Shown: positions 16,170 through 49,023 of the stretch, in pieces
Layout: every line of letters begins with the position of its first letter
Numbering within the stretch: position 1 is the first letter of the stretch
Assembly (NCBI GenBank): GCA_017654855.1
Contig: CM030338.1
Location: forward strand, 3,224,001-3,288,000
DNA: 64,000 nucleotides
Direction of reading: 5' to 3'
Source of the DNA: Podospora anserina
Taxonomy: Eukaryota
The notes under the pieces: generated by a model
Told to the model about the DNA's origin: nothing
The model's database searches: none
The model's input: the letters and a program-made list of their open reading frames with translations, nothing else
Position numbers and translations under genes: made by a program

Positions 16170-17240
16170 TCAGAGCATGGCAAGAGCACCAAAGAGACCA
16201 GCAATGAAGGCCGCGGCAGGGGCCTTCTTGTTGGCGTTGGCACCGGCAGTCTGAATGGGGGCGGTGCCGTTGTTGGGAGTGGTGGTAGGGATGGGGGCAG
16301 CGGTGACCGAGGTGGGGATGATGATGGTGGTAGGAGGCAGGGGCTCCGAGGTGTAGATGATGTTGCTGGCCGAGACGACAACGGTGGAGTAACCGGTGAC
16401 AGTCTTGCGGTCAGTGACGGGAACAGTCGCAATGTAATCGACCTGCTCCGTGATGGTGACCGGGATGATCTCAGTCACGTAGTGAACATCGGTGACAGCC
16501 TTGGTGATACTGTGCAATATGTTAGAGTCGGGCATAAACAAAAGAACGGAGTGGGCAGCTTACGTGTTGGTCTTGGTGACCTTGACAGTCTCACCCTCGA
16601 TGACAGTGGTGTAGGTGGTCTCGGGGCAGGTGACAGTCTCGTAGACATCAGTAGTCTCATACTCGGTGACCAGGGACGTGGTGTAGACAGTCTCGGTCTG
16701 GGCAACCTTGGTGACAATGGTCGAAGTCGAGGTCCAGGTGATCTCGATGGTGGAGCCATCGACAACAGTGGTCTCGGTGACAGGGCAGAGCTCAGTGAGG
16801 GTGGTAACAACGACAGCAGCGTTGGTCTTGGTCACTGGAGGAGCAGTCTGGGTAACAACAACCTCGGTGGGAGCAACCTTGATGATGGTGGAAGTGGAGG
16901 TCCAGGTCACCTCGACAGTAGAGCCATCGACGACAGTGGTCTCAGTGACAGGGCAGAGGGAAGTGAGGGTGGTGTAGACGACCTCATCGGCAGTCTTGGT
17001 CACGGCAGGGCCAGTCTCGGTAACCACAATTGTTGTGGGCTTGACGGTCTTGACGGTGCTGGTGGTGGTGTAGGTGGTGGTGTATGTGTGACCAGGCTTG
17101 GTGTAGGTCTCGGTGACGGGGCAGACGGTAGTGTAGGTTACGACAACCTCGGTGACCACGGTCTCCCACTTCTTACCGCGGGGGATGTTGGCGCCAAGGG
17201 TGGTGGCCGCGAGGGCGAGGAGGGAAAGAGCTGCTCTCAT
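16170..17240 (-). CDS. Secreted Thr/Val-rich repetitive cell-wall protein, predicted GPI-anchored; intron 16510-16563
   Basis: Signal peptide MRAALSLLALAATTLG, repeated CPVTETTVVDGST units and a hydrophobic C-terminal GPI signal (TAGAN...AAAFIAGLFGALAML). GTAAGC...CTAAC...CAG intron. Confidence 0.85.
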
Positions 17241-22246: not shown

Positions 22247-23997
22247 TCACTGCAAAGAAGCCCACGTTCGTTGTACTGTTTCCGCATAGATCTGAAATGC
22301 TGAGAGTAAATGGATTATATCCGACCCCAACTCAAGCTCAGTTATAATGGCCGTATTGTTGCGCCAGGCATGACATCCTTCATCAAGTGGAAGGTCATCC
22401 TCGCCTATGAAGGGCGTCTTTCTCCTTGAAGCTGTAGCGAAAGACGCAGGCCTGCGACGTCTCAACCGTCCAGCCCGAGCAGTTCCATATTCCATCATCT
22501 CCAGTTTTGGCATTCTGATGGCAGCGTGGGCGGCCCAAAGGAGCAGCTGATTCTTTCTGATGTGTGAGCTTTCGGGGTGAAGGACCCTTGTTGTCAAAGC
22601 AAGACGCTTGAGGTTCGACCACTGAGGCTCCCACCCCACAAACCCATCTTCTATGCGAAATTCATAACGGTGGTGGTGAAAAAGATCAACGTCGATTGGC
22701 GCAAAGAAATCCTCGGCGTCCGAATCCCACGAACTCGCCAAAGCTTCGAGGTCGTAACTCCCGACATCCAACGCAGCTCCGAAAATGTTAACTGCGTCTG
22801 GAGGCTTATGGAAGCAATCCCACCCGTTAATCAAGAGGTTATAATCCACATAAAAAGAAAGCTTGATGACGCGGGTTTGTTGGGGCCTTCTGAAGACTTG
22901 AAAAAGGACGAGGTCGCACAGCTCTCTGAAGTGCCTTTTGAATTGCGTTAGTTGACATAACTTTTAAAGCTGTGGGAGGGACCAAAGTAGGTAGAGGTAA
23001 CATACCGTAAATTCTGCTCGTGTCATCATAAACTCCGTCCACCAGATTGAGACACCAAAACTCGAGCCTGAGGCGCTGCATACAAACAAAGCTCTCCCCA
23101 AGCAGCCTATAACGAACATATGGGTTCACTGCTCGATGAAACCGCCGGCGGAAGGTAAGTCCTGTGACAATCTCACACCGAGGGAGTCTTGATCGCCTTG
23201 CGTCGGCCACCGCGCAACGGGCTGTTCCTAAAGTTCAAATACAACGGCTCTGTACCCAAAAGTCGCGATCTAGCCTCAGCAGAGACGTGTCTGAGCATCA
23301 GAGCTCCATGCTGATGATGATGAAAGTTGTCGTTGAGGTGTCTGATCTCGAAGTCTTCGTAGTATTTCATGAAAAAGTACTTAAACCGCCTCCGGAAAGC
23401 CCATTGACCAGGTTGCGGCTTGTAGGGGTACGTATCCTTCAAGTAAAACATATGCTTCCCAGACACGCTGCGCGTCACTTACCGAGTGTGCGCTGAGCTC
23501 CAAGGTCATGCCTTTGTTGGGTCCTGGTGTTCCACGAGTGCGTCTTTTCTCTTCCACCGAGACAGAATATCCAGTAATTGAATGAGAGCCCAAGTGAATG
23601 TCGCGTTGTTGTTTTCCTGGGTAGTTGAGTCTTCGTCCTTCTGGCAGACATCGCATCCCTAAGTTGGCAGGAGCACACGCAACCAGAGGTAGCGAGTGCA
23701 GCCCAATCTATGAATGCGTCGGCCAGATACAAGCCGGCCAAAGTCGGGGAGGTCGTGCTGTGAGAGCGCCAGGTGGCGGAAGTTGATGGCTTCAAAGAAG
23801 TGTTGAAACTCTCTGTTAACAGCAGCGTATTTAGAACGATCCTTTGCAGGCTTGATGATTTGCCAGCCGGGTTATTGGATGGATCCCACTGCTATCGGTT
23901 TCGATGGGGTGATTTAGTGAAGCGATTCCAGCACAAGTTGACGTATTTCTGCTGGTAACCGGGCCCAGTAGGGCCATACGCATATGGAGGAGGACAT
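22247..23997 (-). pseudogene. DUF6546-like protein, second copy, with stops and frameshifts
   Basis: WARLPAEIRQLVLE (F-box-like), MTLELSAHSVSD, IVTGLTFRRRFHR and WSNLKRLALTTRVLHP...AAIRMPKLEMME are spread over several frames; clearly paralogous to 13507-15436. Confidence 0.72.
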
Positions 23998-25005
23998 GGT
24001 ATATTCGCAAGCCTTTATCTTTTGGCAGGTCAAGGTGTGTTTCGGGCTGCAGAGTCGGATGTTAAACGTAAAAGGGAATTTATGGTAAATCGGAGGCGGT
24101 GTACGCAGTCCTGACAAAATACAGTTTGGCTGACCAGAGCGGTTGGCTACGAATTTTGTGTTGGCTATGCCGACCATGTGGCTTGCTCTGCCATAACTTG
24201 TATTCTCGCGTTCGAGCGTCAAGACTGCCTACGAAGATGTTTGCGTTCTACTAGCCACAACCGCCGCCCTCTTTGCCTCATGACATCTCGAGCAGCACCA
24301 ACAACAAGCCCTGGTACCCTCGCCTACTGCTACTACTCAAGCCTCAAGCCTATATTGCATGTTGATATTGGCTGCCCCCGGAGCATAATGGTTTTGTACG
24401 GTGCTGAATGCTCTCTTTAATGAGTGTAGACGTTGTTAAACCGGGCTCCAAAGCCGAAAGGCATCCAAGGGAGGCTTTCCACGGCTTGGACGGTGCTAAT
24501 ATCTCAAAAGGCCTCACTACAATGAGAGTAGACACTATTGAACCCATATGGTGTGTAAGGGTGCTGGTGTTGATGAGGTTGTTTTAGATGAAAGATCATG
24601 GTGGTGAAACACATCCCAATAAACCATCGAACAGTAGTAGAATGCTTTCTCTCTATTCCCATCTCCCATTAATCCAAACGAAAATGCAAAAATGCGACGA
24701 TGCCCATGCCTACCCACCGTCAACACATAAGACAGGCCTTGCGAAAATGTAACACTACAAGTACACGAATAAACTTTCAATATTCCGACGAGCTGCCGCC
24801 TTTTCGAGCACGTCCGTTATATCTGTTCTAAAGAACATCGTCTGTTGCTGTTGTTGGTGTTGTTATTGTGGTTGTTGTTGTTGTTGTTGTCCTTTTACCC
24901 CACCTCCCCCTTTCACCACCATCCTTCTTCCCTACTTCATGTCCACATTATATACCACCTTCCCTTCCTCATTACTCTCCCCCCCCCCTACCCAAAAGAG
25001 ATAAT

Positions 25006-26848
25006 CTATTTCCTCCCCCTCACCAACTTAGCCTCCTCCTCACTATCATCATCCTCATCATCACTCGAAAACTTATCCCCATCCTCCCCAACCGCAAAAA
25101 TCGTCTCCCCATCAAACGAGTCCCTCTCCGGACTGGCCTTCCTCTGCTGCTGCTGCTGCCCCTGCCCAGAAGACGAAGAAGCAACCCCACTCTGCTGAGG
25201 TGGATGCAACACACCACCAGCCACACTCGCCCCAGCAAACCCTCTCTCCTGCTGCTGCTGGTTCTTCCCAATCCTCTGCTCCTCATCCTCATCATCGCTC
25301 TCATCCGGATTCCCAATATCAAGATTGGCAATCTCAAACGTCCCGTCGTCCTCCTGCGCAATCTCGTCACTCATGGCGAAGCGCTTGTTGTTTGCCGTCG
25401 GCCTCCAGACATAGGCGATCCAGGCCACGTCGGCAAAGTAAACAATATTAAGCCAGCCGTCGAGAATGAACCACCTGCTCTTCCAGTGGAAGGGCACAAA
25501 ATCCGGGTCGCTGGCCGAGGCAAAGGTGAAGGAGTTGAAGAAGAAGAAGGCAAAGATGACAATGATGGAGATCAGTATGCCCCACCACAGCTTCTTGTAC
25601 ATGGTCTCCTTGACGTGCTGCTTGCGCTCGCGGAGGTCCTTGAGGGTGAAGTTGAGCGAGTTGAGGGTCCAGACGTAGAAGGCTGTGAGAGTGCCGGCCA
25701 GGGGGAAGACAATCAGGAGTACGAAGGGGCCTAATTGGGTTAGCTTGTGAGCTTCGACAAAGGGGTAGGACTCCTGGCTTACCGGCGTTATCGGGTGTTA
25801 TGACTAAACTTGTCACCGCATAGACAATGCCAAAGACAAAGTGCGCAATGGCGAGCCAACGGACATAGATCATGGTCTTGCCGAGTGTGGGCTTGACGAC
25901 ACCATAACCCATGCAGACGATCAGGAGCAGAAAGAACGAAAACGAGTTGCGCGCAGCGTTCAAGACGGCAACCACGACCAGCAAGATCTTGGACCCAAGA
26001 TTTGACCCATGTCTGTTGAGATAGTCTAGGTCTCGTTAGTGAAACAGTCCACCAACAACATCATGACATGCTCACCATAGAATCCCCATGTCATCAACAT
26101 CTCCACGACGAGGAAGATGAGGATTGCTGTAATATAATTCTGCACAGCCAAGATATCGGTGCGATGCTGATAGTAGAGAAAGCCCCAGTACACCAACACC
26201 AGCGCATAGAGGATCGTTATTCCTCCATAAAACGGCAGCTTCGGGATCTGTGTGGCCGGGAGCTCTCCATATGCGTTTCTAAACTCCACGATAGCCTCGT
26301 AATCATTGTCGGTAAACTGATCGGTAATGACGCAGTAGTAACCAGTCTTGGTGATGGGGTAGTTGATCGGGCTCGCTTTCTTGAGGTGGACGGCCTTGGT
26401 GAGGATCAAGTTTTCGGACTTTTCGGTAGCGTTTGGCGCGAGAATGAATTCACCCAGCTGGGCCTCCTTGCAGTATCCCATCTCGACATCCTTCGGCCGG
26501 CAGATGGCTTCCCTACCGCCACCCTCTTGTCCCACGCCGATGTAGTCTGTGTCCTTCCATTCCACAATCAGGAGACTGGTGATCGGATCGGGTCCCGAGT
26601 CCTTGCCGACGTCGGTGAACTTGACGAGGATAAAGGGGTCGACGGGGCCGCCCCAGGCTTGCTTATCGTACATGCCGGCACATCGTTGCCTGTTTTCGTC
26701 TGTCTGGTCCTGTTATTCCGGCGCATTGTTAGCTCATGGCTAGAGAACAAAGCTGGCAGAGCACAGTGCTCACCAATGCGATCTCCAACGCCTTGGCAGT
26801 CCATGCGGACGACGCCAGTAGGAATAAAGTGGATGCCCAACCCCTCAT
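25006..26848 (-). CDS. PTM1: PTM1 / lung seven-transmembrane receptor-like (TMEM87/GPR107 family), multi-exon
   Basis: Signal peptide MRGWASTLFLLASS; CAGMYDKQAWGGPVDPFI, GYYCV, FRNAYGELPA, NSFSFFLLLIVCMGYGVVKP and WRPTANNKRFAMSDEIAQ. GT-AG introns (first 26710-26773). Confidence 0.9.
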
Positions 26849-27407
26849 GGTGGGTGGTGATGTCGTGTGTGTCTGGCTGTCGTCGAATGTCGGTTCGGGT
26901 TGATGTTAGACAGCGAGCGTACGTGTCTCGATGTGGTCTAGAAAGTTGAAGCGGCGAATTGCACCATGGATTCGACCGTCTCGCGCTTCAGTGTCTGGTG
27001 GCTGCTTTCGTCGGGTGAGACTTGAGTTTCGTCTTGATAAGAAAAAAAGAGGTCGATTTTCAAAAAGTTTAAGATGCAGGCCAGGTTGAAGTTGGAGATG
27101 GGCTGCTACTGCACCGATCACTGTCTGGGGTGCGCTGGTCGACGTTGCGCAAGCTCCCTGCTCCAACGGGCACCCACTGTATGAAACGCAGCTGGAGCCA
27201 ATCAGCACACTGTGCCGTGCGAGGCGTCATCGAGCTGAGCCCCTGGCCCCCTGTCAGATTCAGTTAGTGAATTGCCAGCCGATAAGATAAGAGGTGTGCC
27301 TGACAACCTTCTGGAAATCAACAATTGTTTTGTTTGCTCCCGTCCCGCCATCTCTACGTCACACCCCAATCACCAGTGACCACCCTCCAACCAAACCTGT
27401 CGCAAAG

Positions 27408-29162
27408 ATGGGTAAAGGAACGGACAAGCTATATATCACCCATTCCGAGTGGTCATCCGCCGATGCCTACGGCGCCAGTGTCGGCGCAAATGCAGGATCA
27501 CGCGCGCAACGAACTGGAGCGCATGCGAGCTTCAAGCGCCTTCCCTTCAACTTTTGCGCCGCCAGTCTCCAACCCTTCAAGAACCCAGTTTGCACCGCCG
27601 ACGGCACCATCTTCGACATCGAAGTCATCAGCGCCTGGCTCGAAAAGAAAGGAACGAACCCTGTCGACGGCAAACCACTCTCCGCCAAGGACCTGATCAA
27701 GCTCAACTTTGCGCGCAACGCCGACACCAACAACAGCAACGATCGCAATGGCATCCCCACCGACGGCAAAGGCGACTTCATCGACCCCGTCACCTTCAAG
27801 GTCTTCACCGACAACACCCACATCGTTGCGATCCGCCACGGCAACTACGCCAACGTTTTTGCGTGGGAAACCGTCGAGCGGATGAACATCAAGCCCAAAA
27901 TGTGGCGCGACCTCGTCGACGACGCCGAGTTCGGTCGCAAAGACATCATCACCTTGCAAGACCCCCAAAACGCCGCCAGCCGTGACCTCAGCCAGTTTAA
28001 ACATATTCAAGACGGCGAGGAAGCCGCACTCACCCCAGAACAAGCCGAAACCCGCAAGGAAAGCGGCATCAACATCGACGCCCTGGGAAGAATAGGGGAT
28101 AAAGTCCTCCGCGCAAAAGAAGCCGTCGCCCGCGCCCGTGAGGCTCGCCAGTCGGCATCAGACATCAACCAATCCGCCTCTTCCAAAACCCTCACCAAAT
28201 CTTCTTCCTCCACCACCACCCCGCGCCAATCCCTCATCCAAGAAAAACAAAAACCCTCCAACTCGGCAATCTACACCACCGGCGCCGCCGCCGCCTCCTT
28301 CACCTCCACCGGCCTCACCCCGTCCACTTCCGGCTCGCTAGCCCTCCTCTCAGAAGAAGAATACCTCCTCAAACCCCGCCGCCTCTCCAACAGTAAACAC
28401 CCCGCCTACGTCCGCATTTCCACCACCTTGGGGGACCTAACCCTAGAACTCTTCCCCGAATTCGCCCCCAAAGCCGTCTGGAACTTTTTGCGCTTATCCC
28501 AGAAAGGATACTACAATAACACCCTTTTTCATAGAAACATCAAAAATTTCATGATCCAAGGTGGTGATCCCACTGGTACGGGGAGAGGTGGGACGAGTAT
28601 ATGGAAGAAGACGTTTAATGACGAGCTGGAGGGTCCGTTGAAGCATGATAAACGCGGGGTGGTGAGCATGGCGAATAAGGGGAAGAACACGAACAGCAGT
28701 CAGTTTTTTATCACGTATCGGGAGGCGAGGCATTTGGACAGGAAGCACACCGTTTTTGGGAGGGTGGTTGATTCGGAGGGGACACTAGCAAAAATGGAGG
28801 GGGCGAGGGTGGGGGGGGATAGTAGGCCTTTGGAGGAGATCAAGATCAAGGAGGTGGTGGTATTGCTGGATTGTTTTGAGGAGTTTTTGAGGGAGAAAGG
28901 GGAGAAGGAGAGGGAGGAGGAGAAGAAGAAGGAGGTGGAGAGGAAGGGGGGGACGGAGGATGATAGGACTACTTGGACGGGGAAGAGGTTGAGGGGGGAG
29001 GACGGGGGGGGTGGGAAGGGGGGGGTGGGCAAGTATTTGAAGGAGGTGAAGGGACAGAGACAAGAGGGGGAGGGGGAAGGGGAGACGGATACTTGGGAGG
29101 AACCGGTGAAGAAGAAGACGAGGGTGGGGGGAGGGGGGTTTGGGAATTTTGATGGGTGGTGA
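27408..29162 (+). CDS. PPIL2: U-box + cyclophilin peptidyl-prolyl isomerase-like 2 (PPIL2/Cyp60)
   Basis: MGKGTDKLYITHSEW, U-box FKRLPFNFCAASLQPFKNPV, cyclophilin FHRNIKNFMIQGGDPTGTGRGG...SMANKGKNTNSSQFFIT...LDRKHTVFG. Confidence 0.93.
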   Translation: MGKGTDKLYITHSEWSSADAYGASVGANAGSRAQRTGAHASFKRLPFNFCAASLQPFKNPVCTADGTIFDIEVISAWLEKKGTNPVDGKPLSAKDLIKLNFARNADTNNSNDRNGIPTDGKGDFIDPVTFKVFTDNTHIVAIRHGNYANVFAWETVERMNIKPKMWRDLVDDAEFGRKDIITLQDPQNAASRDLSQFKHIQDGEEAALTPEQAETRKESGINIDALGRIGDKVLRAKEAVARAREARQSASDINQSASSKTLTKSSSSTTTPRQSLIQEKQKPSNSAIYTTGAAAASFTSTGLTPSTSGSLALLSEEEYLLKPRRLSNSKHPAYVRISTTLGDLTLELFPEFAPKAVWNFLRLSQKGYYNNTLFHRNIKNFMIQGGDPTGTGRGGTSIWKKTFNDELEGPLKHDKRGVVSMANKGKNTNSSQFFITYREARHLDRKHTVFGRVVDSEGTLAKMEGARVGGDSRPLEEIKIKEVVVLLDCFEEFLREKGEKEREEEKKKEVERKGGTEDDRTTWTGKRLRGEDGGGGKGGVGKYLKEVKGQRQEGEGEGETDTWEEPVKKKTRVGGGGFGNFDGW

Positions 29163-34713: not shown

Positions 34714-36966
34714 ATGAAGAAGGTAATGAATATAATGCAGAGAAAGGGACAGCGGTGCAGTCCACGAGTGGAAGAAGTTGAGGGTAGTAGGCCGATTTCT
34801 ACGTCCCCTACAACCCTTTGCTCAGCTTGCACCAGCCTCATATATCCTCACCCTATGGACCTTAGGGTGAAGCGATATGGGACGTTTAGATTATGCCACC
34901 ATGATCAGCTGTCCTTTCGAGACGCCGTGCAAAACGGCTGCGCGATCTGCTGCATTGTCATGCAAGACGTCAGACTTCGTGGGCTCAGAAAGGGGAAACA
35001 AAAGTCAGGGGTAGAACCAGACTGCCAGTTTCCTGACACTACATCATCTACAATCACCAGTGGACCAGAAGATTGGATCAAACATGGCAAGCACATTTTC
35101 ATTGCTACATACCGGAACGAGCATGAATACACCTTCACCAGCCTCACTTTGGTCCCAGACTTTGGTAAGACCCCGTTCGTTACCAGACACTACTCATCGG
35201 AAAGCTTGTCAGTATTCTGAGTTCATCAAACTACACACAGATAATTTGCGGGCTCATCACATGCACCGCGATATATCGCGGGACAATGATACATCAGCGG
35301 GGACAAGTCCAACCATGCGCCTGGCCATTCATTGGCTTAGACATTGTCAAACATCTCATAAGGAATGCGCATCAACACTGGAACCCTCGGGTCGCAATAC
35401 AGCTAACCTTCCTTCGCGGCTTCTGGATATCGGACCCGAAGCGACTGGAAGCTTGAGACTCGTGTTAACCGGAGAGGACGGGGTGGACGCCCGAGCCCAG
35501 TACATTACTCTGAGCTACATGTGGGGGTAAAGATTCAGCGGGTCATGCTTTTATCTTCAACCTTAGACTCCTTCCGCCAGGGACTGCCGATCAGTGAGCT
35601 TCCTCGAACATTTCAGGATCTGATTGTGCTTGCCCGGGCATTCGGCGTTCGTTACATGTGGATCGATGCCCTCTGCATCATCCAGGACTCTACTGAAGAC
35701 TGGGAGCACGAAGGTGCCGCCATGTGGAAGGTTTACGCGAATTCGCTTTGTACAATTGCAGCTACCGCCTCTATAAGTCCAGAAGATGGCTTGTTTCGGA
35801 AGAGAGACCCCGTACCATTCACTCGACAGATCAAGGCTCCTAGCGGACATCCATGTCGCGACAATCATGATTATCATGTTTTCGATCCAGGCTTCGCAGA
35901 AAGGTGTATTTCCAGTGGGCCATTACAGTCAAGAGGCTGGGCATTCCAGGAGCGAATCATGTCGCCACGGGTTCTTCATTTTTCAGACAGCCAGATGCTG
36001 TGGGAATGTCGCAAAGAGACCCAGTGCGAAGCAGCTCCTTTCTATACGACTCTTCTGTCCCAGAAGAGCACAAAAGGGTCAATCCAACATCAAGGAATGA
36101 GGAACAGACTGGAAGTGACTGCGGACCACGACGCGGAATCGTCTGCCTCCTTATCTTCGTCGACACCTGCGAGAAACCATGTTGGGAAAGAATATGATGT
36201 GTTTCTGGATGGTTGGAAATCAGTTGTCGCGATCTACTCAAACTGTAGCTTGACCTATGACGAGGACAAGCTACCTGCTTTGGCGGGCCTAGCCAAGGCA
36301 TTTCTACGAGACAAACCAGCTCGCACGTATCTTGCAGGCATGTGGAGAGAGAATCTTGAAGGGCAGTTAGGCTGGAAGGTGAACACTCCGGGAAACAGAC
36401 TCTCCACTCCTTACCGCGCACCTTCGTGGTTCTGGGCATCGGTGACCAGTGCTATTGAACCGTCCTTATATTATAAGCTGGAGAAGCTCGGCCACTGTTT
36501 CTATACCATCCCGAGGATTGAAAGCGTCAGCTGTGTAACTAAAGGACCACAGTATTTCGGAAGGGTCTTGAGAGCACACCTTGAGGTCTCCGGTTACCTG
36601 GTTTTCCCAATTGTTCATAGTATTGACGGTGAAAAGGAACCCCAGACCTGCCAGTTGCGGATTGAACACACGTTTATGTCTGCGTGCCTGTGCTGGGATA
36701 CTGTGGATGTCCGTGCTAGTGTCGGGTTCACAATTACATGTCTACCCCTTGGTATAGAGTATGATACTCGTATTATTACTTGTATTATACTGGAGCAGGT
36801 TGGGGGGAATTCACCCATCAAGTATCAGCGAGTTGGTTTATTGAAGGTTACTTTCGGTCATGATCGCAGTGACCAGCTTTGGAGGTTCGGAATAGAAAAG
36901 GGGATAAAAGAAAATCGGTCTGTTGCCAAGTATAACAAGGAGTTTTCTGTCATACATATTGTATGA
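34714..36966 (+). pseudogene. HET-domain (PF06985-type) heterokaryon incompatibility protein with a 1-bp frameshift at ~35525; intron 35165-35240
   Basis: HWLRHC..H, LPSRLLDIG and YITLSYMWG* continue in another frame as ELPRTFQD, RYMWIDALCIIQDS..DW..E...MWKVYANSLCTIAA, LQSRGWAFQERIMSPRVLHF, DKLPALAGLA and YRAPSWFWAS. Confidence 0.8.
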
Positions 36967-37071: not shown

Positions 37072-37905
37072 TCAATAAACCTCAAACTTTCTTTCTCTCC
37101 ACCTCCCAACCGGCACAGCACTCGGCTGCCTGTTTAACGTCAACCCAGCGCCCTCCAATATCAACACAACCATCATCTCCATAATCACTCCCATCCCAAG
37201 AAAATACCACACAAAACTCCCCACCCCGCCATAACTCTTAAACCTCGGATCTGTCCCAAATGTAGCCAACCCTGAGAACACGATCCTGACAATCATAAAC
37301 GGCGACGCCAGCCCAACTCCAAACAACAACCTCTTCTCCCCTGGCTCCACCGCCCCTATCTCCACCATCGTCACCAACGTCCCCAAAACTACAAACCCCA
37401 ACCCAGCCATAGTCAACCCCAACCCAGCCTGGCTCTCATTCGGCACAGTCACCACCTCCGCCTGCTGTCCCGTCGTCCCACTAACCGCATCTCCAATCTC
37501 ACCACTCATCATACTCTGCCCTACAATCGAAAGTATCAACCCTATCAACATCACCACTTGCGCAAGTCTCTGGTGGCGTGGGCTGATGAACGTCTGGGTT
37601 CCTTGTTGTCGGATACCCAGGAGGACTCGGCCTAAAAGGTTGGAGAGGCAGATGACGAGGGCGGAGACGCCGATGGAGTACATTACTTGAGAGGCGACGA
37701 TGAGGTTGGGGTTGGAGGGGGAGGCGATGGTGGCTAGGTTGAGGGAGGAGCCGACGATGCGGGTGGTGGTGAAGATTATGAGGTAGAGCCAGCCGGCGTT
37801 TTTGCGGAAGCCATGGCGGGTGGAGAGGAGGATGGCGATGAGGAGGGCGGGGGTGTAGATTGCTAGCTCGACGATGGAGATGCTGTTGAGGGGGTGGAGG
37901 GCCAT
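37072..37905 (-). CDS. Fungal 7-TM membrane protein (RTA1-like superfamily, uncharacterised)
   Basis: 277 aa from ATG 37905 with about seven hydrophobic helices; RHGF...GWLYLIIF..RIVG and PFMIVRIVF motifs. Confidence 0.75.
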   Translation of the reverse strand: MALHPLNSISIVELAIYTPALLIAILLSTRHGFRKNAGWLYLIIFTTTRIVGSSLNLATIASPSNPNLIVASQVMYSIGVSALVICLSNLLGRVLLGIRQQGTQTFISPRHQRLAQVVMLIGLILSIVGQSMMSGEIGDAVSGTTGQQAEVVTVPNESQAGLGLTMAGLGFVVLGTLVTMVEIGAVEPGEKRLLFGVGLASPFMIVRIVFSGLATFGTDPRFKSYGGVGSFVWYFLGMGVIMEMMVVLILEGAGLTLNRQPSAVPVGRWRERKFEVY

Positions 37906-38751
37906 TTTGAAGTAATTATTTACATTTAGGTACAACTGAGGGAGGACAAGAATACGAAGGGAGGTCATTCCGGACTAGGAATGTGCTGAGGGGCTCACAG
38001 TCAGATGTTGTACTCTCAGTCATGGGTATACGTACTGGATCGTTTGATTCAAGAATGAAGTTTTTTCTTGATAATTCGAAGACGAGCATGAAGCTGAGGA
38101 TACAAATTCCTTCGATTGTCTCTTGGCAGGACATTTCAACCAAGCTCATGTCAGCTTTTGACCGCTAGGCTGGGCTGGAGCTCCCAAACCGTCTTTGTTC
38201 CAACCGTGGGCTGAAGACTGAAAGCTGACATAAACGGACCATTATGGGCGCTAACAGCCGAGTCAGCCTCATGAAGGCGCTTGCGTCTGGCGTGTTTGTC
38301 TTGTTGCGCCACACGTCTTATTGGTTGTCGCTCACCAACGCCGCTCAGGTGGTTTGAAACTGATCTATCGAGGGAAGCCGTTCTCTCCAGCTCAAGGCGA
38401 GTAAGCTAAGGGCTGTCACAAACTGCGCCATATTAAACAAAATTCATGTCGCTTTCATCTTCGAGCCGATGGTGTCAGGTATTCAGGGAGTGGATTTTAT
38501 GTAAACAGATGTTGAACTGGATGGAAGAAGGCTGGCCATCAAGGTTCACCCCTATCATCACAAACAACCCTAACCCACCATGTTTTCCTTCATCGATGGG
38601 TACCATCAAATGGGCCCCACACAGCTCTGCCCCTCCAAGATTCCACGATACCCCGCCATAATTATGTCCCCCAGGTTTTCAAGGTTCTCATTTCTCACCA
38701 CCACCACCACCACGCGCGCGACCCAGTTTGTCTTTATAAACCATCGCAAAC

Positions 38752-39780
38752 ATGCCTGTATGCCCCCTTACAATAAATTACCAATTAGACCACCTAACCA
38801 ACTCTTACCAGCTAATAATCCTCACCGGCCTCCCCACCTCAGGCAAATCCCACCGAGCCGCCCAGCTACAAACCTACCTCGCCGAGCGCATCGCCTCCTC
38901 CAACCCCCCATCCCCCTACCGCCTCCACCTCATCTCAGACGAAACCCAGTCCGTCTCCCGCACCGTCTACGACCTCGACCCCTCCTCCCTCCCCGCCCAC
39001 GTCCGCAGCGCAAACGCCTCCGAAAAGGACGCCCGCGCCTCCATCTACGCCGCCGTCAAGCGAGTCCTATCCCCAAAAGATATCGTCATCCTCGATGGCA
39101 TGAATTACATCAAGGGGTGGCGGTATCAGCTCCATTGTGAAGCAAAAAACCTCGCTACACCGTCGGTGATATTACAGATAGGATGCCCTGTCGACAAGGC
39201 GAGGGAGATTAATGAGGAGAGGTTACGGACTGAGGGTGGGGTGGAAGGTTACTCAACTGGGAACTGGGACAATCTGGTGTTTCGGTATGAGGAGCCGAAT
39301 CCCATGACGAGGTGGGACTCGCCGTTGTTTACGGTTATTTGGGATGATGATGAGGAGCAGGCGAGGAGGGTGTACGAGCAGATATGGGATAGTGTTGCTG
39401 GGGAGGGGGCCAAGAAGAAGGTTAGACCCAATAAGAGTACCGTGCAGAGGGATAAGGATCCCGGGGGGGATTATTTGTATGTGTTGGAGAAGGAGACGCA
39501 GGATATTGTGAAGAGAATATTGGAGAAGCAAAATGAGGCGGGGGAGGGGGGGACGGTGAGGTTGCCGAAGGTGAATGGGGGGGATGATGGGGGCGAGGAG
39601 TTGGTGTTGGAGTTGCCCGGGAGGAAGCTGGGGTTGGCGCAGTTGCAGAGGTATAGGAGGGCGTTTGTGGGGTTGAATAGGGGTGGGATTGGACTGGAGG
39701 AGGTCGGGAAGTTGGCGGCGGGGAGGTTGAGGGAGAGTTTTGTGGGGTATCTGAATGATGCTTTTGAGAAGGATGGGTGA
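38752..39780 (+). CDS. KTI12: Elongator-associated protein Kti12 (P-loop); intron 38758-38811
   Basis: Spliced MP|LIILTGLPTSGKS, IVILDGMNYIKGWRYQLHCEAK and NLVFRYEEPNPMTRWDSPLF. Confidence 0.93.
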   Translation: MPVCPLTINYQLDHLTNSYQLIILTGLPTSGKSHRAAQLQTYLAERIASSNPPSPYRLHLISDETQSVSRTVYDLDPSSLPAHVRSANASEKDARASIYAAVKRVLSPKDIVILDGMNYIKGWRYQLHCEAKNLATPSVILQIGCPVDKAREINEERLRTEGGVEGYSTGNWDNLVFRYEEPNPMTRWDSPLFTVIWDDDEEQARRVYEQIWDSVAGEGAKKKVRPNKSTVQRDKDPGGDYLYVLEKETQDIVKRILEKQNEAGEGGTVRLPKVNGGDDGGEELVLELPGRKLGLAQLQRYRRAFVGLNRGGIGLEEVGKLAAGRLRESFVGYLNDAFEKDG

Positions 39781-40571
39781 GGTGAGACGCGAGGTCATGG
39801 TGGTGTGTCGAGTTGACCTGCGTGGCCGACAGTGTGTGTTTCGCTTGTTCAATCCGAAAATAAACGATCAAACAACCAGTTCGGTATTGCAGCCGCGCGC
39901 ACAGCAATCGATCAAGACGAAGGGCTGTGATGGGACCTGGAGACCTGCTTTGTCCACAGTACAAGTTTCTTTCACCGAGCTTTCTGAAGGCTTTTGGCCC
40001 CCCCCATATTCAGCCTTTGACCACAGTATGAGCATTATCCAGATTTGCTGTCCCGACAGTCTGGTACTAGCCGCCGTCGACACGCATCAAACATTGGATG
40101 GTGCCATGGAGGTGGGACTAGTACCCATCTGGGCGGTTGTTGGTTTTACTTCCCGGGCTCTGATTGGCTGGATCCATTCACGACATCTCCATTTATTGTG
40201 TAACCTCTCCTGTTATCATGTCTCAACATGGCCGATGGGCAAGCGCGGTCATATTCAATGAGATTATTTTTGGGGTTGAGTCCACAGTCAGGTGGTGGGC
40301 CACAAGCAGGGAGGTCGATGTAGTGGCGATCAGGCTGGGGGTTGGGTAGAGTCGGCCACCACTCGCTTGAGGAGCTGTCCAAGTAAGCAAGGAGACGAAA
40401 AGTATACAAACCACGTTGTTTGCCGCGCTATGGAGTCATCATCATCATCAGCACCATCTTCTCTTGTCTCTTTCCTACCTAACCTATCAATAATAGGTAA
40501 CTCGAGCATACTGTGTATGCCCTCTCTGTCATAATCACCAACATAGTATCTCTTTTCAGAAGAACCTAAAC

Positions 40572-41408
40572 ATGCCCACCAAAACCTCCCAACACGCCTT
40601 CGCCGGCTCGGAACGCTGGGTCGTCCCCCGCTACTCCTCCAAACCAGGCACCCTCATCCGACTCGGGTCTGTCCTCACCGACCCAGAAGACTTGGAATCC
40701 TCCCTCAACCTCGACAGCATCCCCCCCATCCCCCCCCACCTCCTCCGCGACGCCACCCCAGAGGTGCGAATGTCTGTCCAGACTGAGCTCAGCAAATCAG
40801 ACTCCACCCTTGCCAAAGCCGCCCCCGCACTGGAGGGCATCCTCACCCTCGGCGGCGGGGTGGAAGCCTCCCGCTCCCAGGGGGTGAGCTCGTCTCTTAA
40901 CATCTCGGGAACTGTCAAGGCGACTGTTTTTCGGGCGGATAAATCTTACATGGATGTGCTGCTTAAGGATAAAAATGTGATTTCTTATGCGAAGAGGGGG
41001 TTGGGAAAGCCGATGTTTGTTGTTGTTGGGGTGGCTACTGCTGGGAGGGTGGAGATGAAAGAGACGAGGCATGTGACGAGGAAGGCTGGGGTGAGTGGGA
41101 AGGTGGGGGTGGAGGTGATTGGGGAGGGGGAGGTAGGGTTGGAGAGGGAGAGGAGCGATAAGAGTTGTAATGAGGTGAGGGGGGAGGGCGGGTTGGATTT
41201 TGCTTATAGGGTGAGGGAGTTTGGTTACTCGAGGGTGAGGGGGACGGTGAAGGATAAGGGGGATTGGACGGGGAAGGTCCTCTTCGCTGGGGGAAAGGGG
41301 CCGGTGGTGGAGAAGGGGGGTGAGGTGGTGCCGGTGTTTAAGGAGTTTAAGGAGGGCGAGGTTAAACTGAGGGCGACGGGGAGTTTTGATGTTGCTGCCA
41401 AGGCGTGA
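40572..41408 (+). CDS. het-Q1: Fungal gasdermin (RCD-1 family), HET-Q1-type pore-forming cell-death protein, 278 aa
   Basis: Fungal gasdermin motifs [22 protein letters not shown] and DFAYRVREF, plus two alternating-polarity beta-hairpin stretches. The 278-aa length and Phe at position 238 (KVLF|AG) agree with my recollection of P. anserina HET-Q1. Confidence 0.9.
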
Positions 41409-41683
41409 GGAAGGTTATAATCGATGTGTGATGGTAGTGGTGACGGGTTGGATGACGGCTTAATTTCTTGTGCTTTGAGGAGTACGGTGTTTTGGATATG
41501 TAGCTGGAATACATGATGGTTCGAATTACAATCACTGGAGGATTCTGTCAACCAAGAGTCCAAGTTGATGTTCGGTAAATTCTTCACAAAGTAATCAGCG
41601 CCTTGGAATTCATCCCATCTACCTCCTTTTACATTCATTTGTTCATTACATAACAGCTACCATCCCGATTTCCATTGTGAAAA

Positions 41684-43486
41684 TTAAAGCATATACTTGA
41701 AATCGGGGTTCAGATCCTATCCATGATTGTCAGTATACCGTCTCGTCGATCAACGGTGTTTACGAGAGCAACTCACCCCAAGCTCCGCCTTTTCCTGCTC
41801 CGTCATGCCCTCAGGGAGAGTCTGGTTCGCCTTCTTCCTGTTTTCAGCCATGATGGATACCGCGTAAATGATACACGACAGAGCGCTCAGGCAGATGAAG
41901 GACACGCAGATGATGTACCCCTTTCTGAAGTCGCCTCCAACAAACGAGTATGTAGCGATGATGCCGCCAATGTTGCCGAAACCTATCCCATGTTCAGTCT
42001 CTTGTTTCCAAATGCAATATCCCAGGAAAACTCACCAATCTGCCACGCACTCCCCACAGCCCTCCGGTGATGCCCACCCAAGTTCATATTAAACCAACAA
42101 ACCTGAATCGGCATCGCCGAGTACATGCCCATGCAAATCAGCACCAAAGCCGCATACTGCACCGGCAAATTATCGTGCACATTCAGCAGAATCGCAAACC
42201 CGCTGATCGAGATACAGATCGGGAGAACCGTGAACAAGAACCTGTGCTTCAGCCAGTCTGACGCCGTGGCGATGACCATGGCGAAGACAAACGCCACTGC
42301 CCAGGGAGGCACAGAGTGAAGCTGGGTCTGGATCTTATCGTAGCCGTAACTCTGGACAATGGTGGGACTGAAGTACGCGTACGAGTAGGCGGGGACAATA
42401 ATGCCAAAGTACATGAAGCCGCCGAGCCAGACCTTGTAGTCGGACATGACCTTGCCGACGTCCTTGAGGGTGATGCTGCGCTCGGCGGCGGAGTGGCCTT
42501 GGTCAGCGTGGAGACGGGCTTTGATGTAGTCTCTTTCGTCGTCGCGGAGCCATTTCTGTTGGTATTGTTAGCTTCCTTTTCCCATCATTTGGATATTTTT
42601 GTTCCGGTGGTTGAAGATTTTCAACCAAAACCCCCTTTCGCCCCCCTGAACAACGGAAAAAAAGAGATCACATACCGCCTCCTCGACAAATCCCGGAAAA
42701 GTAAACAAAAAGATCGCCCCAATCACCACCGTCGCCGCCCCCTCAATCAAGAAAATCCACCTCCACCCCCTATAACCCCTCATATAATCCATACTCCCCA
42801 ACCCGCTCGCCAACAGCCCCCCGAACGCCCCCGCCAAACTCGTGCTCGAGAAAAACAAACTAAACCTCTTCTGTGCCTCCTCTCGTCTGTACCACATCCC
42901 CAGCAAATAAAAACACCCAGGAAACATGCCGCACTCAAACAACCCGAGCAAGAACCTCGTCGTCAAAATCCCGGCGTAGTTCTGCACAAGGCCTTGCATC
43001 ATGGTGATGAACCCGAAGCCGATACAGCACCCGCTGAGCCATATCCTCGGTGAGATTTTCTTCAGGAGGATATTGGAGGGGATTTCAAAGAGGATGTAAG
43101 GGACGAAGAAGATTGTGAGTGCGGTGTTGAATTGTGTTCCCGACAGGCCCAGGTCGGTTTCGAGGCCGAAGGCGCGGGCGTTGGCGATGTTGACGCGGTC
43201 GAGGAAGGCCATGAGGTAGAGGATGATGACGAAGGGGACGAGGTGGAGGTCGATTTTGGTTGTCAGCCTGCGGGGGGTGGTGTGAGAGGGACAGATGACG
43301 GGGGCGGGAGCGGTGGGGGTGATGCCTAGAGAGGAGGAGGAGGAGGAGCCGGTGTGGTGACGGTGAGCGGCCTTTTCTTCATCTTGGTGTGGTGGCCCTG
43401 GTGGAGGGACTGACGAGGTGTTAGTGAGGTTATCGTGAGGAACACGGTGGGTGAGAGGTAAGTGTCACCTTGAGGTTGAGACGCCA
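41684..43486 (-). CDS. MFS transporter, anion:cation symporter (Dal5/Tna1-like), multi-exon
   Basis: KIDLHLVP..LYLMAFLDRVNIANA, FFVPYILFEIPSN, RFLLGLFECGMFPG and GWRWIFLIEG; C-terminal ELG|DLNPDFKYML after a final intron. Confidence 0.9.
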
Positions 43487-46094: not shown

Positions 46095-49023
46095 CTACGT
46101 CTCTTGCGGTTCCGTATTCGTACCCTGCTGTAGTGCCGCCGGCAACGGGGGAACAGCCGGAGGAGGAGCCGGAGCGGGGACGCCGCCGCTGCCAGCCACG
46201 TTGTTACCCTCCTCCTCTGCCCGCTTAAGATCCAGACTCTTCCCTCTCGAAGACGACAAAAGGCTGGAACCAATCGAAACCGTCCTCTCGCCACCAGGCG
46301 GTGACTTGGCCCTGCGCTGCTCGACATTCTCCTTGTGCTCACGGTACTTGTTCTTGATCCAGCTCGAGATCTTATCTTTACCACCACTTCCGCCGCCTTC
46401 GCCTGAAGACACTTCGCCGCTGGCAATGGCCCGATCGAGGGAGTCGCCCGTCATGCTCTGCCTCCCCTTGTAGCCCGAGCTTCCAATCGACGTGGTGCTG
46501 GTTTCGGCGTTGGAATGCGTTCCGAGCAGCCGGGGAGAGGATAGCGGGGGGTAAGACGGGCCCGTGTCCTCCTTTTTCCGTGACAGACGCCATCTCTTCT
46601 TTTGGCTCTTTTCTCCCGACTCAGGACTGGTCACTTCTGACGTCACAGCCGTCAGCTCATCTACCTGGTCCATGTCCGAGCTCTCGTTAAACGAGCTGTT
46701 CAGCGACGTCGGCGGGGACTTTTTCGATTTCAAGGTGTTTTCTGCATCGTTGGGCGTCAAAAGAGTGTGGTGTTGAGTTTCTGCATCGGCAACCGTAGGC
46801 TGAGGCGCTGGAGGTGCTGGCGCCTGTGGCGTCGTGTCAGATGCTGTTTCCGACTTTGGCTCAGCTGGAGCATCTCCGGGAATGGCAAGCTTGGACCCAG
46901 AAGAGATTGTCTCCAGAGGATTGGGTGTTTCGGTGTTTGGTGACGCGGCTGCAGAGTGCGACAGTGATGCTTGTGAGCTGTGTGCGCTGGGGTTGGCGCT
47001 ACCTGGCATCCTTTTCTTCCTCAGCTTGTTTGGCTTTCCACCTTCACCGTCGCTTGTGGCAATCCGTTGGAACAAAATTGGCAGCTTCCGTTCCTTGGAT
47101 GGTGTCGTGACTTCAGGAACAGGGGAGATGGGCTCGAGCAACTTCTCCTGACCTGGCACAGCCAGGTTTGGTAGCGGGACGGCTCGATGTTCGGGTCGTG
47201 GCCCGCTTGGTGCCGTGGTTTCCGGTACCGGTACCGGTACCGGCGCTGGCGGTAATTGCGTGTTTGCTTCCGTCTCTTCCGGCGTAGCAACTTCTTCTAG
47301 CACTGCTGGGGGAGGTATGACTGCGGTGGTAGGAGGAGCCATTGGCGTCAGTGGACTGACAACTGCCTCCCCGCGATTACCAAACCTGCCAGCCTGTAGT
47401 GCTGGGGACTTCTTTGATGGGACAGTGTTGCTCCTGTTGAGTCCACCGGTCGGGGTGGTGGCAACAGCTGGGCTCGCAGGACTCGGGGCGCCGTTGGAGG
47501 CCATGGAACGTCTTGAAGAGGTCGACTTGTTCCTACGAATCGACCCATTCTTTCGGACGCTCTCGGCTCCGGCGCTCGCGGTCGAAGCAGACCGATGAAC
47601 CCCAGACTTCCTGTTGGGAGTATGCGGAGGCTTGGGGTTCTGCACTTGCTGAGCCGTCTTCTCGTCCAATCCTGTGCCTTGCATGCCAATGAGGAAATGA
47701 TCCTGGTTTTCGATGAGGAAAATGATGACGAGTTGGTTCAGCCGGTACTCTTCAGGCGCCATCGCATGGTGAGGATGAGAAAGCATGCCAGGTTGAAAGA
47801 TGGCAGCCAGATTCTGCGAATTCATCCTGTTCTGGTCCGACTTGGCCGCAAAGACCGCAAGCAAATCCAGGATGTACAGCAGAAGCTGGCGGTTGAGGGG
47901 CGGTAATTCCGTAATGAGCTGTTGGTACCTCCTGATGGCGGCGTCCATATCGAACGTCTCGACGAATTGCGGCCCTTCGGCCTCACCGGCGCCCGGCCTC
48001 GTGGCCCCTCTCAGAGGTTCCCGGAATTTCTCGTAAAGATCCAGGGGCACAACCGGCTCGGGGAGATCGTTCAGGTATCGGCGAAGCACGTTGGCGGCGT
48101 CGTGAACCGTGTAGCCGTCCCAGACGAGACCTTTGCCGTACCTATCGGGCGAGTCAAAGATGTTCTTGAGCTCCTTGATTCGCTTCTCAGACCCGCTGAG
48201 GCGAAAGATGCCCTCAATTTCAGTGGCTTCAACGTCATGTTAGTTCTCACACCCAGTCACAAAAGCCCGGCTTTCTTCCATCCCGATTACAGTACACAAC
48301 GGGACACGCACCTCTCTCCTTCAAGAAAATACCACATTTTGCTACCACGATCGGCACATAACCATAGATGTAGCTCTTGCCGTCCTCGTCGACGAGCGAG
48401 ATGGCGACGTTGGCATACGTAATGCTCTGCCGGAGGGGAACACCAAAGATGCCTTGGGGACGGGCTTGGTCTGCGACTATTAGTTTCGGTCCGGCTCGGC
48501 ACAACGGTTTTGGGCACGATCCTCTCGCGAATCTCCTGAGGCGCCAGGTTAGGACGCGGGCGATGGCATCCAACTTGGGCACCTCTGGTCGCTTCGGTCT
48601 TTCGGGTAGCGGCGGGCTCATGTTTGCACTTGCTGAATGAGCTGCTCGCCTCTCTTCTTCTAGCACAATGTTCTGGAGCAGGACTGCGGCGGACGGAAGT
48701 TCTTTATACAATCCCTCCATGTCCTCCGCAAATATGGGTCTCCTTCCGGGCTGTTTGGATCTGGTGTTACAGGACGGGGTGGACAAGGTTGCGTTACCAT
48801 TTGCTTCCTGGTGCTTGGAAGGGAGTTTGAAACCTTTCCACCAAGACTTGAGATCACGCTTGCTGGGCGGAGAAACAGCAGATGACAGCTGGGTGGGAGC
48901 CGCGGGGGTGGAGGGCGTATGCTGGTGGTGGTGCTGATGTTGATGATGATGCTGGGAGGGCTGCTGCTGCTGCTGCTGGGAAGCAACAGGCGGGTGTGGT
49001 GCTGGTAGTGCGGCGGACGTCAT
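46095..49023 (-). CDS. Rho GTPase-activating protein (Sac7/Bag7-like); introns 48471-48797 and 48227-48311
   Basis: GIFGVPL...YGYVPIVVAKCG, arginine finger EGIFRLSGS, LRRYLNDLPEP and NRMNSQNLAAIFQPG. Confidence 0.9.

What the first reader, a model, noticed from the sequence alone, without database searches (positions are those of the whole stretch)
40572..41408. Fungal gasdermin (HET-Q1 type): protease-activated pore-forming cell-death and allorecognition gene
Seen: a compact, intronless 278-aa ORF between housekeeping genes. It has an N-terminal [10 protein letters not shown] motif and two long alternating hydrophobic/polar beta stretches ([43 protein letters not shown]...[17 protein letters not shown]), separated by [12 protein letters not shown] and closed by DFAYRVREF. 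Established: this is the layout of the fungal gasdermin/RCD-1 family. From memory, P. anserina HET-Q1 is 278 aa and kills fused cells when the subtilisin-like protease HET-Q2, encoded by the alternative idiomorph, cleaves it. Inference: this is the gasdermin allele of a two-component, pyroptosis-like non-self recognition system. If it is identical to HET-Q1 the system is already described; automated annotation would probably still call it hypothetical.
Basis: partly seen in the sequence, partly recalled or inferred. Interest (0 to 1): 0.95.

Follow-up and report, generated by a model that had tools for sequence, protein, structure and literature searches.

The report
Known fungal gasdermin gene het-Q1

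Summary
Residues 7-238 match the solved cryo-EM chain 9UV9_A, 'fGSDM/HET-Q1 pores', at 230 of 232 positions (E = 2.7e-148). The only differences are H56 for N and V168 for A.

The exact protein is already in NCBI and UniRef. Versions 98-99% identical in sister Podospora species are named 'Gasdermin-like protein HET-Q1'.

The published cleavage site L237-F238|A239 is intact. All 16 pore-contact and pocket residues named in the structure paper that can be checked are also intact.

A 68-sequence family profile reaches Neurospora RCD-1 and bacterial gasdermins. An AlphaFold2 model finds only gasdermin structures in Foldseek ranks 1-10.

No protease gene lies beside it, as expected for the het-Q1 idiomorph.

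The system is fully described: genetics and cleavage in Clavé et al. 2022 (PMC8851545), and the 20-protomer pore structure in Su et al. 2026 (PMC13475620).

Verdict: observation confirmed, interpretation supported, novelty 'already known', interest low.

The ORF also switches sharply from C-rich to G-rich. This is a window-wide effect and matches a published fungal GC-skew pattern. It is not a sign of chimeric origin.

The parts
40572..41408 (+). het-Q1 coding sequence, 278 codons plus stop, no intron
   Evidence: ORF listing and translation. Exact protein on record in public databases. 230/232 identity to PDB 9UV9_A over aa 7-238.
40572..41285 (+). Codons 1-238: the cytotoxic, pore-forming gasdermin domain, which is the fragment released by HET-Q2
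   Evidence: PDB chain 9UV9_A covers aa 7-238. HET-Q1(1-238) is toxic in Podospora and yeast (Clavé 2022, passages). AlphaFold2 model with long beta hairpins at aa 95-120, 147-180 and 184-220. Foldseek ranks 1-10 are all gasdermin structures.
41277..41291 (+). Codons 236-240 (V-L-F-A-G): the HET-Q2 cleavage site, with the scissile bond F238-A239
   Evidence: Motif VLFAG at aa 236-240. L237A and F238A block cleavage and killing. The F238-A239 bond is named in Su 2026. An 'ALF' majority consensus sits at this place in the 68-sequence family alignment.
41286..41405 (+). Codons 239-278: the C-terminal inhibitory tail, the ~5-kDa fragment removed on activation
   Evidence: A ~5-kDa C-terminal fragment is cleaved off. 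The tail A239-A277 is modelled as an inhibitory loop in Su 2026. In my model aa 244-261 and 263-277 have pLDDT < 50.
39781..40571 (.). 791-bp upstream intergenic region (promoter and 5' UTR, part of the idiomorphic segment) with no protease remnant
   Evidence: Only short stop-to-stop frames, none gene-like by eye; they were not scanned in Pfam. The published idiomorphic region is 1.6 kb in het-Q1 strains. The exact idiomorph borders could not be placed without a het-Q2 sequence.
41409..41749 (.). About 340 bp of downstream intergenic region, up to the probable last exon of the MFS gene
   Evidence: The frame 41750..42031 (-) reads like a transmembrane C-terminal exon. That assignment is by eye and was not tested.
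38752..39780 (+). Upstream flanking gene, KTI12 family
   Evidence: Pfam PF08433, E = 1.1e-68.
41983..43464 (-). Downstream flanking gene, MFS transporter (two large exon frames)
   Evidence: Pfam PF07690, E = 1.2e-08 and 7.5e-25.

Best explanation
This is the het-Q1 idiomorph of the het-Q allorecognition locus of a fungus of the Podospora anserina species complex, most probably P. anserina itself. It encodes the gasdermin HET-Q1. The full-length 278-aa protein is held inactive by its 40-residue C-terminal tail. [quoted passage not shown] The released 1-238 domain refolds, extends two beta hairpins, assembles into a 20-protomer membrane pore and kills the fused cell, which shows as the barrage reaction. 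Gene identity and intact functional residues are shown here. Cleavage, pore formation and killing are shown in the literature for a protein 230/232 identical over the solved region, and are inferred for this allele.
For: The 278-aa ORF is confirmed. phmmer against the PDB gave 3 matches at E <= 10: 9UV9_A 'fGSDM/HET-Q1 pores' (E = 2.7e-148, aa 7-238, 230/232 identical), RCD-1-2 8JYZ_B (E = 3e-07), and one chance hit at E = 0.52. The exact sequence is in NCBI and UniRef on 10 contigs, and 3 of the 4 other cluster members carry names: two 'Gasdermin-like protein HET-Q1' and one P. comata 'unknown function'. Those members are 98-99% identical. The cleavage motif V236-L237-F238-A239-G240 is present; L237 and F238 are required for cleavage and 1-238 is the toxic form. 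H8, F10, E14, R15, W16, V18, Y21, D40, E42, R59, T71, L109, M162, R213, L237 and F238, named in Su 2026, are all present. The paper also lists 'F213', but position 213 is R213, so that one cannot be checked. The 68-sequence profile against the PDB gave 12 matches at E <= 1, and the 8 best are all gasdermins: HET-Q1 3.5e-79, four RCD-1 chains from 1.1e-29 to 5.5e-16, and bacterial gasdermins at 3.3e-08, 4.4e-08 and 1e-04. The AlphaFold2 model has mean pLDDT 75.8 and pTM 0.69. Foldseek against the PDB gave 19 matches at E <= 0.001, with ranks 1-10 all gasdermin or gasdermin-like structures and the best, 8JYZ_B, at E = 5.3e-10. No protease domain was found in any of the 26 long ORF translations of the window scanned in Pfam. 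That fits a het-Q1 haplotype, where a cis-encoded HET-Q2 would be lethal.
Against: The protein differs from the deposited P. anserina chain at two positions, H56 (N in the PDB) and V168 (A in the PDB). All 4 other members of its 90% cluster also carry N56 and A168. So this allele is not letter-for-letter the protein used for the structure, and its cleavage and toxicity have not been tested as such. Pfam finds no family at E <= 10, so the Pfam gasdermin models do not see it. I could not obtain a het-Q2 sequence or the rest of the genome, so the partner and the idiomorph borders are not verified here. The species is inferred, because names for the window's own protein are withheld. If the window comes from a sister species, an allorecognition role there is not documented in what I read.
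Confidence: 0.96

Rival explanations
1. It is the orthologue of het-Q1 in a sister species of the P. anserina complex. There the gene may be fixed, with no het-Q2 idiomorph segregating, and may serve another role, for example as a cell-death executor triggered by a different protease, rather than allorecognition.
For: Nearly identical proteins (98-99%) exist in P. pseudocomata, P. comata and P. pseudopauciseta. The PDB chain labelled P. anserina differs from the window at 2 residues and, over aa 7-238, is identical only to the P. pseudopauciseta member. Most fungal gasdermins work with a neighbouring protease rather than an idiomorphic one.
Against: The exact sequence occurs on 10 contigs. All 21 runs that hold the stretch carry one species label, which fits a species with many sequenced strains. 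No protease gene is adjacent, which is the het-Q1 idiomorph layout described for P. anserina. Even in this case the molecule and its activation chemistry are the same.
Confidence: 0.12
2. The H56/V168 allele is functionally altered, being either resistant to HET-Q2 or of changed specificity, and so is a third functional het-Q allele.
For: Two private substitutions set it apart from all four other cluster members and from the solved chain.
Against: Neither position is among the residues reported as contacts or as needed for cleavage. Only two het-Q genotypes are described. The substitutions are conservative in size.
Confidence: 0.03
3. It is a chance ORF or a pseudogene in G+C-rich DNA.
For: High-GC fungal DNA gives many spurious long frames: 12 ORFs of 60 aa or more overlap the 3 kb around it. 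No run on record as RNA was listed.
Against: Near-identity to a purified protein with a solved structure. 93 relatives at E <= 0.001 in the representative library. Intact start, stop, cleavage site and contact residues.
Confidence: 0.005

Closest known systems
HET-Q1 of Podospora anserina (Pa_7_10775; PDB 9UV9; Clavé et al. 2022, PMC8851545; Su et al. 2026, PMC13475620)
   Same: Same length (278 aa), 230/232 identity over aa 7-238, the same L237-F238|A239 cleavage site and the same named interface residues. The locus layout is also the same: a lone gasdermin gene with no adjacent protease, between two conserved flanking genes.
   Different: Two substitutions, H56 for N and V168 for A.
RCD-1-1 / RCD-1-2 of Neurospora crassa (PDB 8JYZ, 8JYY, 8JYX)
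   Same: Same fungal gasdermin family: E = 3e-07 for the single sequence, and 1.1e-29 and 2.7e-24 with the profile. It is the best structural match, at TM 0.50-0.63. It also acts in allorecognition cell death.
   Different: RCD-1 is activated by heteromeric interaction of two antagonistic alleles without proteolysis, and forms an 11+11 pore. HET-Q1 needs cleavage and forms a 20-mer.
Bacterial gasdermins (PDB 8SL0, 7N51, 7N50, 9A84)
   Same: Detected by the family profile at E = 3.3e-08 to 1e-04 and by fold at E = 2.8e-08 and 4e-08. They too have a short C-terminal inhibitory peptide that is removed by an associated protease.
   Different: Per Su 2026, the Runella bacterial pore is much larger (46-fold symmetry) and its N terminus carries a palmitoyl moiety, whereas the HET-Q1 N terminus binds the neighbouring protomer instead.
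Mammalian gasdermins (GSDMD, GSDMA3, GSDME, GSDMB pores)
   Same: Same pore-forming fold (Foldseek E = 2.9e-06 to 4e-03) and the same logic of protease-triggered release of an N-terminal pore domain.
   Different: Mammalian proteins carry a large folded C-terminal repressor domain and are cut by caspases or granzymes. HET-Q1 has only a 40-residue tail and is cut by an S8 serine protease. There is no detectable Pfam Gasdermin match.

Membership tests
Fungal gasdermin family (HET-Q1 / RCD-1) | Significant sequence similarity to characterised members | tested here: met
   9UV9_A at E = 2.7e-148 (230/232 identical) and RCD-1-2 at E = 3e-07. With the profile: RCD-1-2 at 1.1e-29 and RCD-1-1 at 2.7e-24.
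Fungal gasdermin family (HET-Q1 / RCD-1) | Gasdermin N-terminal pore-forming fold (globular 'palm' plus two beta-hairpin 'fingers') | tested here: met
   AlphaFold2 model with mean pLDDT 75.8 and strands at aa 95-120, 147-180 and 184-220. Foldseek PDB ranks 1-10 are all gasdermin structures, the best at E = 5.3e-10. Aa 7-238 is also near-identical to a solved pore chain.
HET-Q1 proper (protease-activated fungal gasdermin) | Short C-terminal inhibitory tail after a conserved L-F cleavage site (L237-F238|A239) | tested here: met
   VLFAG at aa 236-240, followed by 40 residues. The site is defined by mutagenesis and truncations in Clavé 2022 and named in Su 2026.
HET-Q1 proper (protease-activated fungal gasdermin) | Oligomer-interface and cleavage-supporting residues (R15, W16, Y21, D40, E42, R59, R213, H8, F10 and others) | tested here: met
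   All are present in the translation and invariant among the 5 cluster members. The residue list comes from Su 2026, section 'Insights into fGSDM pyroptotic pore'.
HET-Q1 proper (protease-activated fungal gasdermin) | Idiomorphic locus: a lone gasdermin gene between conserved flanks, with the S8 protease HET-Q2 at the same site in other strains | tested here: inconclusive
   The lone gene is flanked by KTI12 and MFS genes. About 2.0 kb separates the flanking ORFs, against a published idiomorphic segment of 1.6 kb. No protease was found in 26 long ORFs. I had no het-Q2 haplotype to compare and no genome. The passages I read do not give the functions of Pa_7_10770 and Pa_7_10780.
HET-Q1 proper (protease-activated fungal gasdermin) | Cleavage by HET-Q2, toxicity of 1-238, pore formation on liposomes | not testable with these tools
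   Shown experimentally for P. anserina HET-Q1. For this allele it is inferred from 99% identity.
Pfam Gasdermin (N-terminal pore-forming domain models) | Match to the Pfam profile above the gathering score | tested here: not met
   0 families at E <= 10, and no precomputed Pfam domain on any of the 12 homologues. The Pfam models do not reach the fungal branch. The link to other gasdermins rests on the profile and fold results.

The most novel reading that the evidence does not exclude
The window's allele carries two private substitutions, H56 and V168. These are absent from the solved P. anserina chain and from all four other sequences of its 90% cluster. It could be a functionally distinct het-Q1 variant, for example with altered sensitivity to HET-Q2 or to another protease. 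That would add a third specificity to a locus described as having two.
Probability: 0.03. Interest if true: 0.35.

Novelty: already known. Interest (0 to 1): 0.08.

Why it matters
HET-Q1/HET-Q2 is the reference case showing that protease-activated gasdermin cell death predates animals. It is a good model system, but its gene, genetics, cleavage site, heterologous reconstitution and 2.68 Å pore structure are all in print (PMC8851545, PMC13475620). Finding it again in this window adds only a correct annotation and a note of two amino-acid differences from the deposited chain.

Tried and rejected
1. Whole-genome search for paralogues and a HET-Q2-like protease: no genome is held for this window.

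2. Expression and intron check with public runs: no RNA holder was listed. Contigs of three runs guessed to be RNA, plus one probable DNA run, were laid. These are contigs only. They run beyond the stretch, and three of them leave 41100-41333 uncovered. No joint was seen. This says nothing firm about transcription.

3. Protease remnant in the flanks. Recalled subtilisin motif patterns gave 2 loose matches to the Ser pattern alone (2332-2352 and 40155-40175, both minus strand) and none to the His or Asp patterns. The frames there are short and not gene-like by eye. I treat both matches as chance.

4. Chimeric or foreign origin, suggested by the sharp C-rich to G-rich switch inside the ORF. I rejected this because the same switch occurs in 9 of 13 ORFs tested in the window, and it is a published fungal pattern.

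5. Two literature searches for this skew in Podospora returned mitochondrial-genome papers and unrelated titles, none on nuclear gene skew. That judgement rests on the 10 and 12 listed rows of 19 and 15 hits, by title and the start of the abstract.

6. Earlier scan notes by place and by sequence: nothing.

7. Complex prediction was not used, because no HET-Q2 sequence was in hand and the homo-oligomer is already solved.

Full report
**Observation.** The window holds an uninterrupted ATG-to-stop ORF at 40572..41408 on the + strand, encoding 278 aa.

| Motif | Residues |
|---|---|
| [10 protein letters not shown] | 29-38 |
| [23 protein letters not shown] | 91-113 |
| [12 protein letters not shown] | 146-157 |
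| [20 protein letters not shown] | 161-180 |
| [17 protein letters not shown] | 186-202 |
| DFAYRVREF | 209-217 |

The upstream neighbour is a KTI12-family gene (38752..39780 +, Pfam E = 1.1e-68). The downstream neighbour is an MFS transporter on the minus strand (41983..43464; E = 1.2e-08 and 7.5e-25 for its two large frames). A further frame at 41750..42031 (-) looks by eye like the transporter's last exon. That leaves about 791 bp upstream and about 340 bp downstream of the ORF, with no room for a second gene.

**Identity.**
- A phmmer search of all PDB chains gave three matches at E <= 10:
  - 9UV9_A 'fGSDM/HET-Q1 pores', E = 2.7e-148, covering aa 7-238 with 230 of 232 residues identical. 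The differences are H56 against N and V168 against A.
  - 8JYZ_B 'Gasdermin-like protein rcd-1-2', E = 3e-07.
  - A ribosomal protein at E = 0.52, which I take as chance.
- The exact 278-aa sequence is already held by NCBI, UniRef and others, on 10 contigs.
- Its 90% cluster has four other members at 98-99% identity: two named 'Gasdermin-like protein HET-Q1' (P. pseudocomata, P. pseudopauciseta), one 'Putative protein of unknown function' (P. comata) and one unnamed.
- Names for the window's own protein are withheld. I infer that the window comes from the Podospora anserina species complex, most probably P. anserina itself. The reasons are that one identical protein occurs on many contigs, and that all 21 runs holding the stretch carry a single species label.

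**What is in print.**
- Clavé et al. 2022 (PMC8851545; I read the abstract and the passages returned):
  - het-Q1 is Pa_7_10775 on chromosome 7 and encodes a 278-aa protein of the RCD-1 gasdermin family.
  - It lies between Pa_7_10770 and Pa_7_10780. That segment is 1.6 kb in het-Q1 strains and 2.4 kb in het-Q2 strains, and the two versions are unrelated in sequence (idiomorphs).
  - HET-Q2, an S8 serine protease, removes a ~5-kDa C-terminal fragment. L237A and F238A block cleavage and killing. HET-Q1(1-238) alone is toxic in Podospora and yeast. The reaction was rebuilt in yeast and 293T cells.
- Su et al. 2026 (PMC13475620; I read the abstract, the sections 'Architecture of...' and 'Insights into fGSDM pyroptotic pore', and the passages):
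  - They report the 2.68 Å cryo-EM structure 9UV9 of a pore of 20 HET-Q1 protomers.
  - They name the scissile bond as F238-A239.
  - They list interface residues.

**Functional residues in the window's protein.** The motif V236-L237-F238-A239-G240 is intact. H8, F10, E14, R15, W16, V18, Y21, D40, E42, R59, T71, L109, M162, R213, L237 and F238 are all present, and all are invariant among the five cluster members. The paper also lists 'F213', but position 213 is R213, so that one cannot be checked. Neither of the two variant positions (56, 168) is on that list.

**Independent family and fold tests.**
- Pfam gives no family at E <= 10.
- The word-indexed search found 12 proteins at E <= 0.001, the query itself included. 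Seven of them are named 'hypothetical protein', and none has a precomputed Pfam domain.
- The exhaustive representative search found 93 proteins at E <= 0.001, 47 at <= 1e-10 and 16 at <= 1e-30.
- From the 100 distinct family proteins then in hand (P0001 and P0006-P0104), I aligned 68. I dropped most fragments under about 240 aa and the proteins in which the domain is shifted, fused or only partly matched (for example P0064, P0076, P0043, P0044), as well as P0016.
- That profile matched 12 PDB sequences at E <= 1. The eight best are all gasdermins: HET-Q1 at 3.5e-79, four RCD-1 chains from 1.1e-29 to 5.5e-16, and three bacterial gasdermins at 3.3e-08, 4.4e-08 and 1e-04. The other four have E >= 0.039.
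- AlphaFold2 on the same alignment gave mean pLDDT 75.8 and pTM 0.69, with long strands at aa 95-120, 147-180 and 184-220. Residues 1-11, 78-82, 244-261 and 263-277 have low confidence. The model therefore looks like the extended, pore-type conformation rather than the autoinhibited one.
- Foldseek against the PDB gave 19 matches at E <= 0.001. Ranks 1-10 are all gasdermin structures: the RCD-1 pore (E = 5.3e-10, TM 0.50/0.62), bacterial, Trichoplax, GSDME, GSDMA3 and GSDMD pores, and the RCD-1-2 crystal structure at rank 10. Other beta-pore formers (pneumolysin, perforin, complement) follow from E of about 1e-3. That library ends in April 2026 and does not hold 9UV9.

**Partner protease.** None of the 26 long ORF translations I scanned in Pfam carries a protease domain. 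These were 26 of the 34 stop-to-stop frames of 220 aa or more, plus the 194-aa MFS frame, less the het-Q1 frame itself, which was scanned. Recalled subtilisin motif patterns gave only two loose Ser-motif matches and no His or Asp match. This is what a het-Q1 haplotype should look like, since het-Q1 and het-Q2 together are lethal. I had no het-Q2 sequence and no genome, so the idiomorph borders and the partner are not verified here.

**Mechanism.** Shown here:
- the gene's identity;
- its intact cleavage site and interface residues;
- its fold;
- its lone position.

Shown in print for the near-identical protein:
- cleavage by HET-Q2 at F238|A239;
- release of the 1-238 domain;
- refolding into two beta hairpins;
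- assembly into a 20-mer pore;
- lytic death of fused cells.

Inferred: that this H56/V168 allele behaves the same way.

**Composition.** The ORF changes abruptly from C-rich (nt 1-330: 44% C, 22% G) to G-rich (nt 331-837: 9% C, 46% G). This is carried by synonymous sites. Third-position C falls from 0.69 to 0.03-0.09 and third-position G rises from 0.13 to 0.64-0.70 across the quarters of the ORF. The best change point is at codon 102, z = 12.5 against shuffles.

It is not special to het-Q1. Nine of the 13 ORFs tested show the same change, all in the same direction, at z > 7. They include both neighbours (KTI12 at z = 17.2, the MFS frames at 7.1 and 11.5). Three show none, and one is weak at z = 2.4.

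That paper describes exactly this pattern in most fungi it analysed: a C bias at the 5' ends of genes and a G bias at the 3' ends, affecting fourfold-degenerate sites, with an unresolved cause. Podospora is not in its species list as far as my term search shows (0 occurrences), though Neurospora crassa is. So the switch is a genome-wide property and no evidence for a chimeric origin of the idiomorph.

**Verdict.** The object is the described het-Q1 gene, so its novelty is 'already known' and its interest is low. The only open points are the two substitutions relative to the deposited chain and the exact species.

Noticed in passing
window 40572-41408, and at least 8 other ORFs (e.g. 38752-39777, 37072-37974, 27291-29162, 4926-6218): There is a sharp intragenic switch of synonymous codons from C-ending to G-ending along the coding strand. 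In het-Q1 the change point is at codon 102 (z = 12.5). The same direction is seen in 9 of 13 ORFs tested at z > 7, and 500-nt GC skew reaches +/-0.84. It matches the published fungal 5' C / 3' G gene skew (McLean & Tirosh 2011, PMC3315797), whose cause is unresolved. The amplitude here is large, and genes such as the HET-domain ORF and 14131-15102 lack it.
   Followed up: partly
window 35407-36966 (+): An ORF of 519 aa with a HET (heterokaryon incompatibility) domain, Pfam PF06985, E = 1.8e-22, lies 3.6 kb upstream of het-Q1. It is a second incompatibility-type gene close to the het-Q locus, and it shows no C-to-G codon switch.
   Followed up: no
window 41100-41333 and 41018: Contigs of three public runs from three studies all break in the very G-rich part of the ORF (about 41100-41333), while a fourth run spans it. 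The same three runs carry T>C at 41018, a synonymous change in codon F149. This is probably an assembly problem in low-complexity G-rich sequence plus a strain polymorphism.
   Followed up: no
protein P0064 (998 aa) and P0076 (423 aa): Two relatives carry the HET-Q1-like region as part of a longer protein. In P0064 it is aa 729-987 of 998 (E = 6.2e-10). In P0076 there are three matched stretches. They may be fused or repeated gasdermin architectures; I did not examine them.
   Followed up: no
model mfb23426828d9 (aa 1-278): AlphaFold2 with the 68-sequence alignment predicted the full-length protein with long extended beta hairpins, like the pore form, and left the C-terminal tail disordered. 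It did not give the compact autoinhibited form that Su et al. report from AlphaFold 3.
   Followed up: no
window 1649-3016(-), 11237-11983(+), 14131-15102(-), 16089-17249(+), 24832-25734(+), 26020-26949(+), 48247-49056(-), 58606-59547(-), 61877-62560(-): These are long stop-to-stop frames (227-455 aa) without any Pfam family at E <= 0.001. Some may be spurious frames of GC-rich DNA and others lineage-specific genes. A DUF6546 frame sits at 22247-22963 (-).
   Followed up: no
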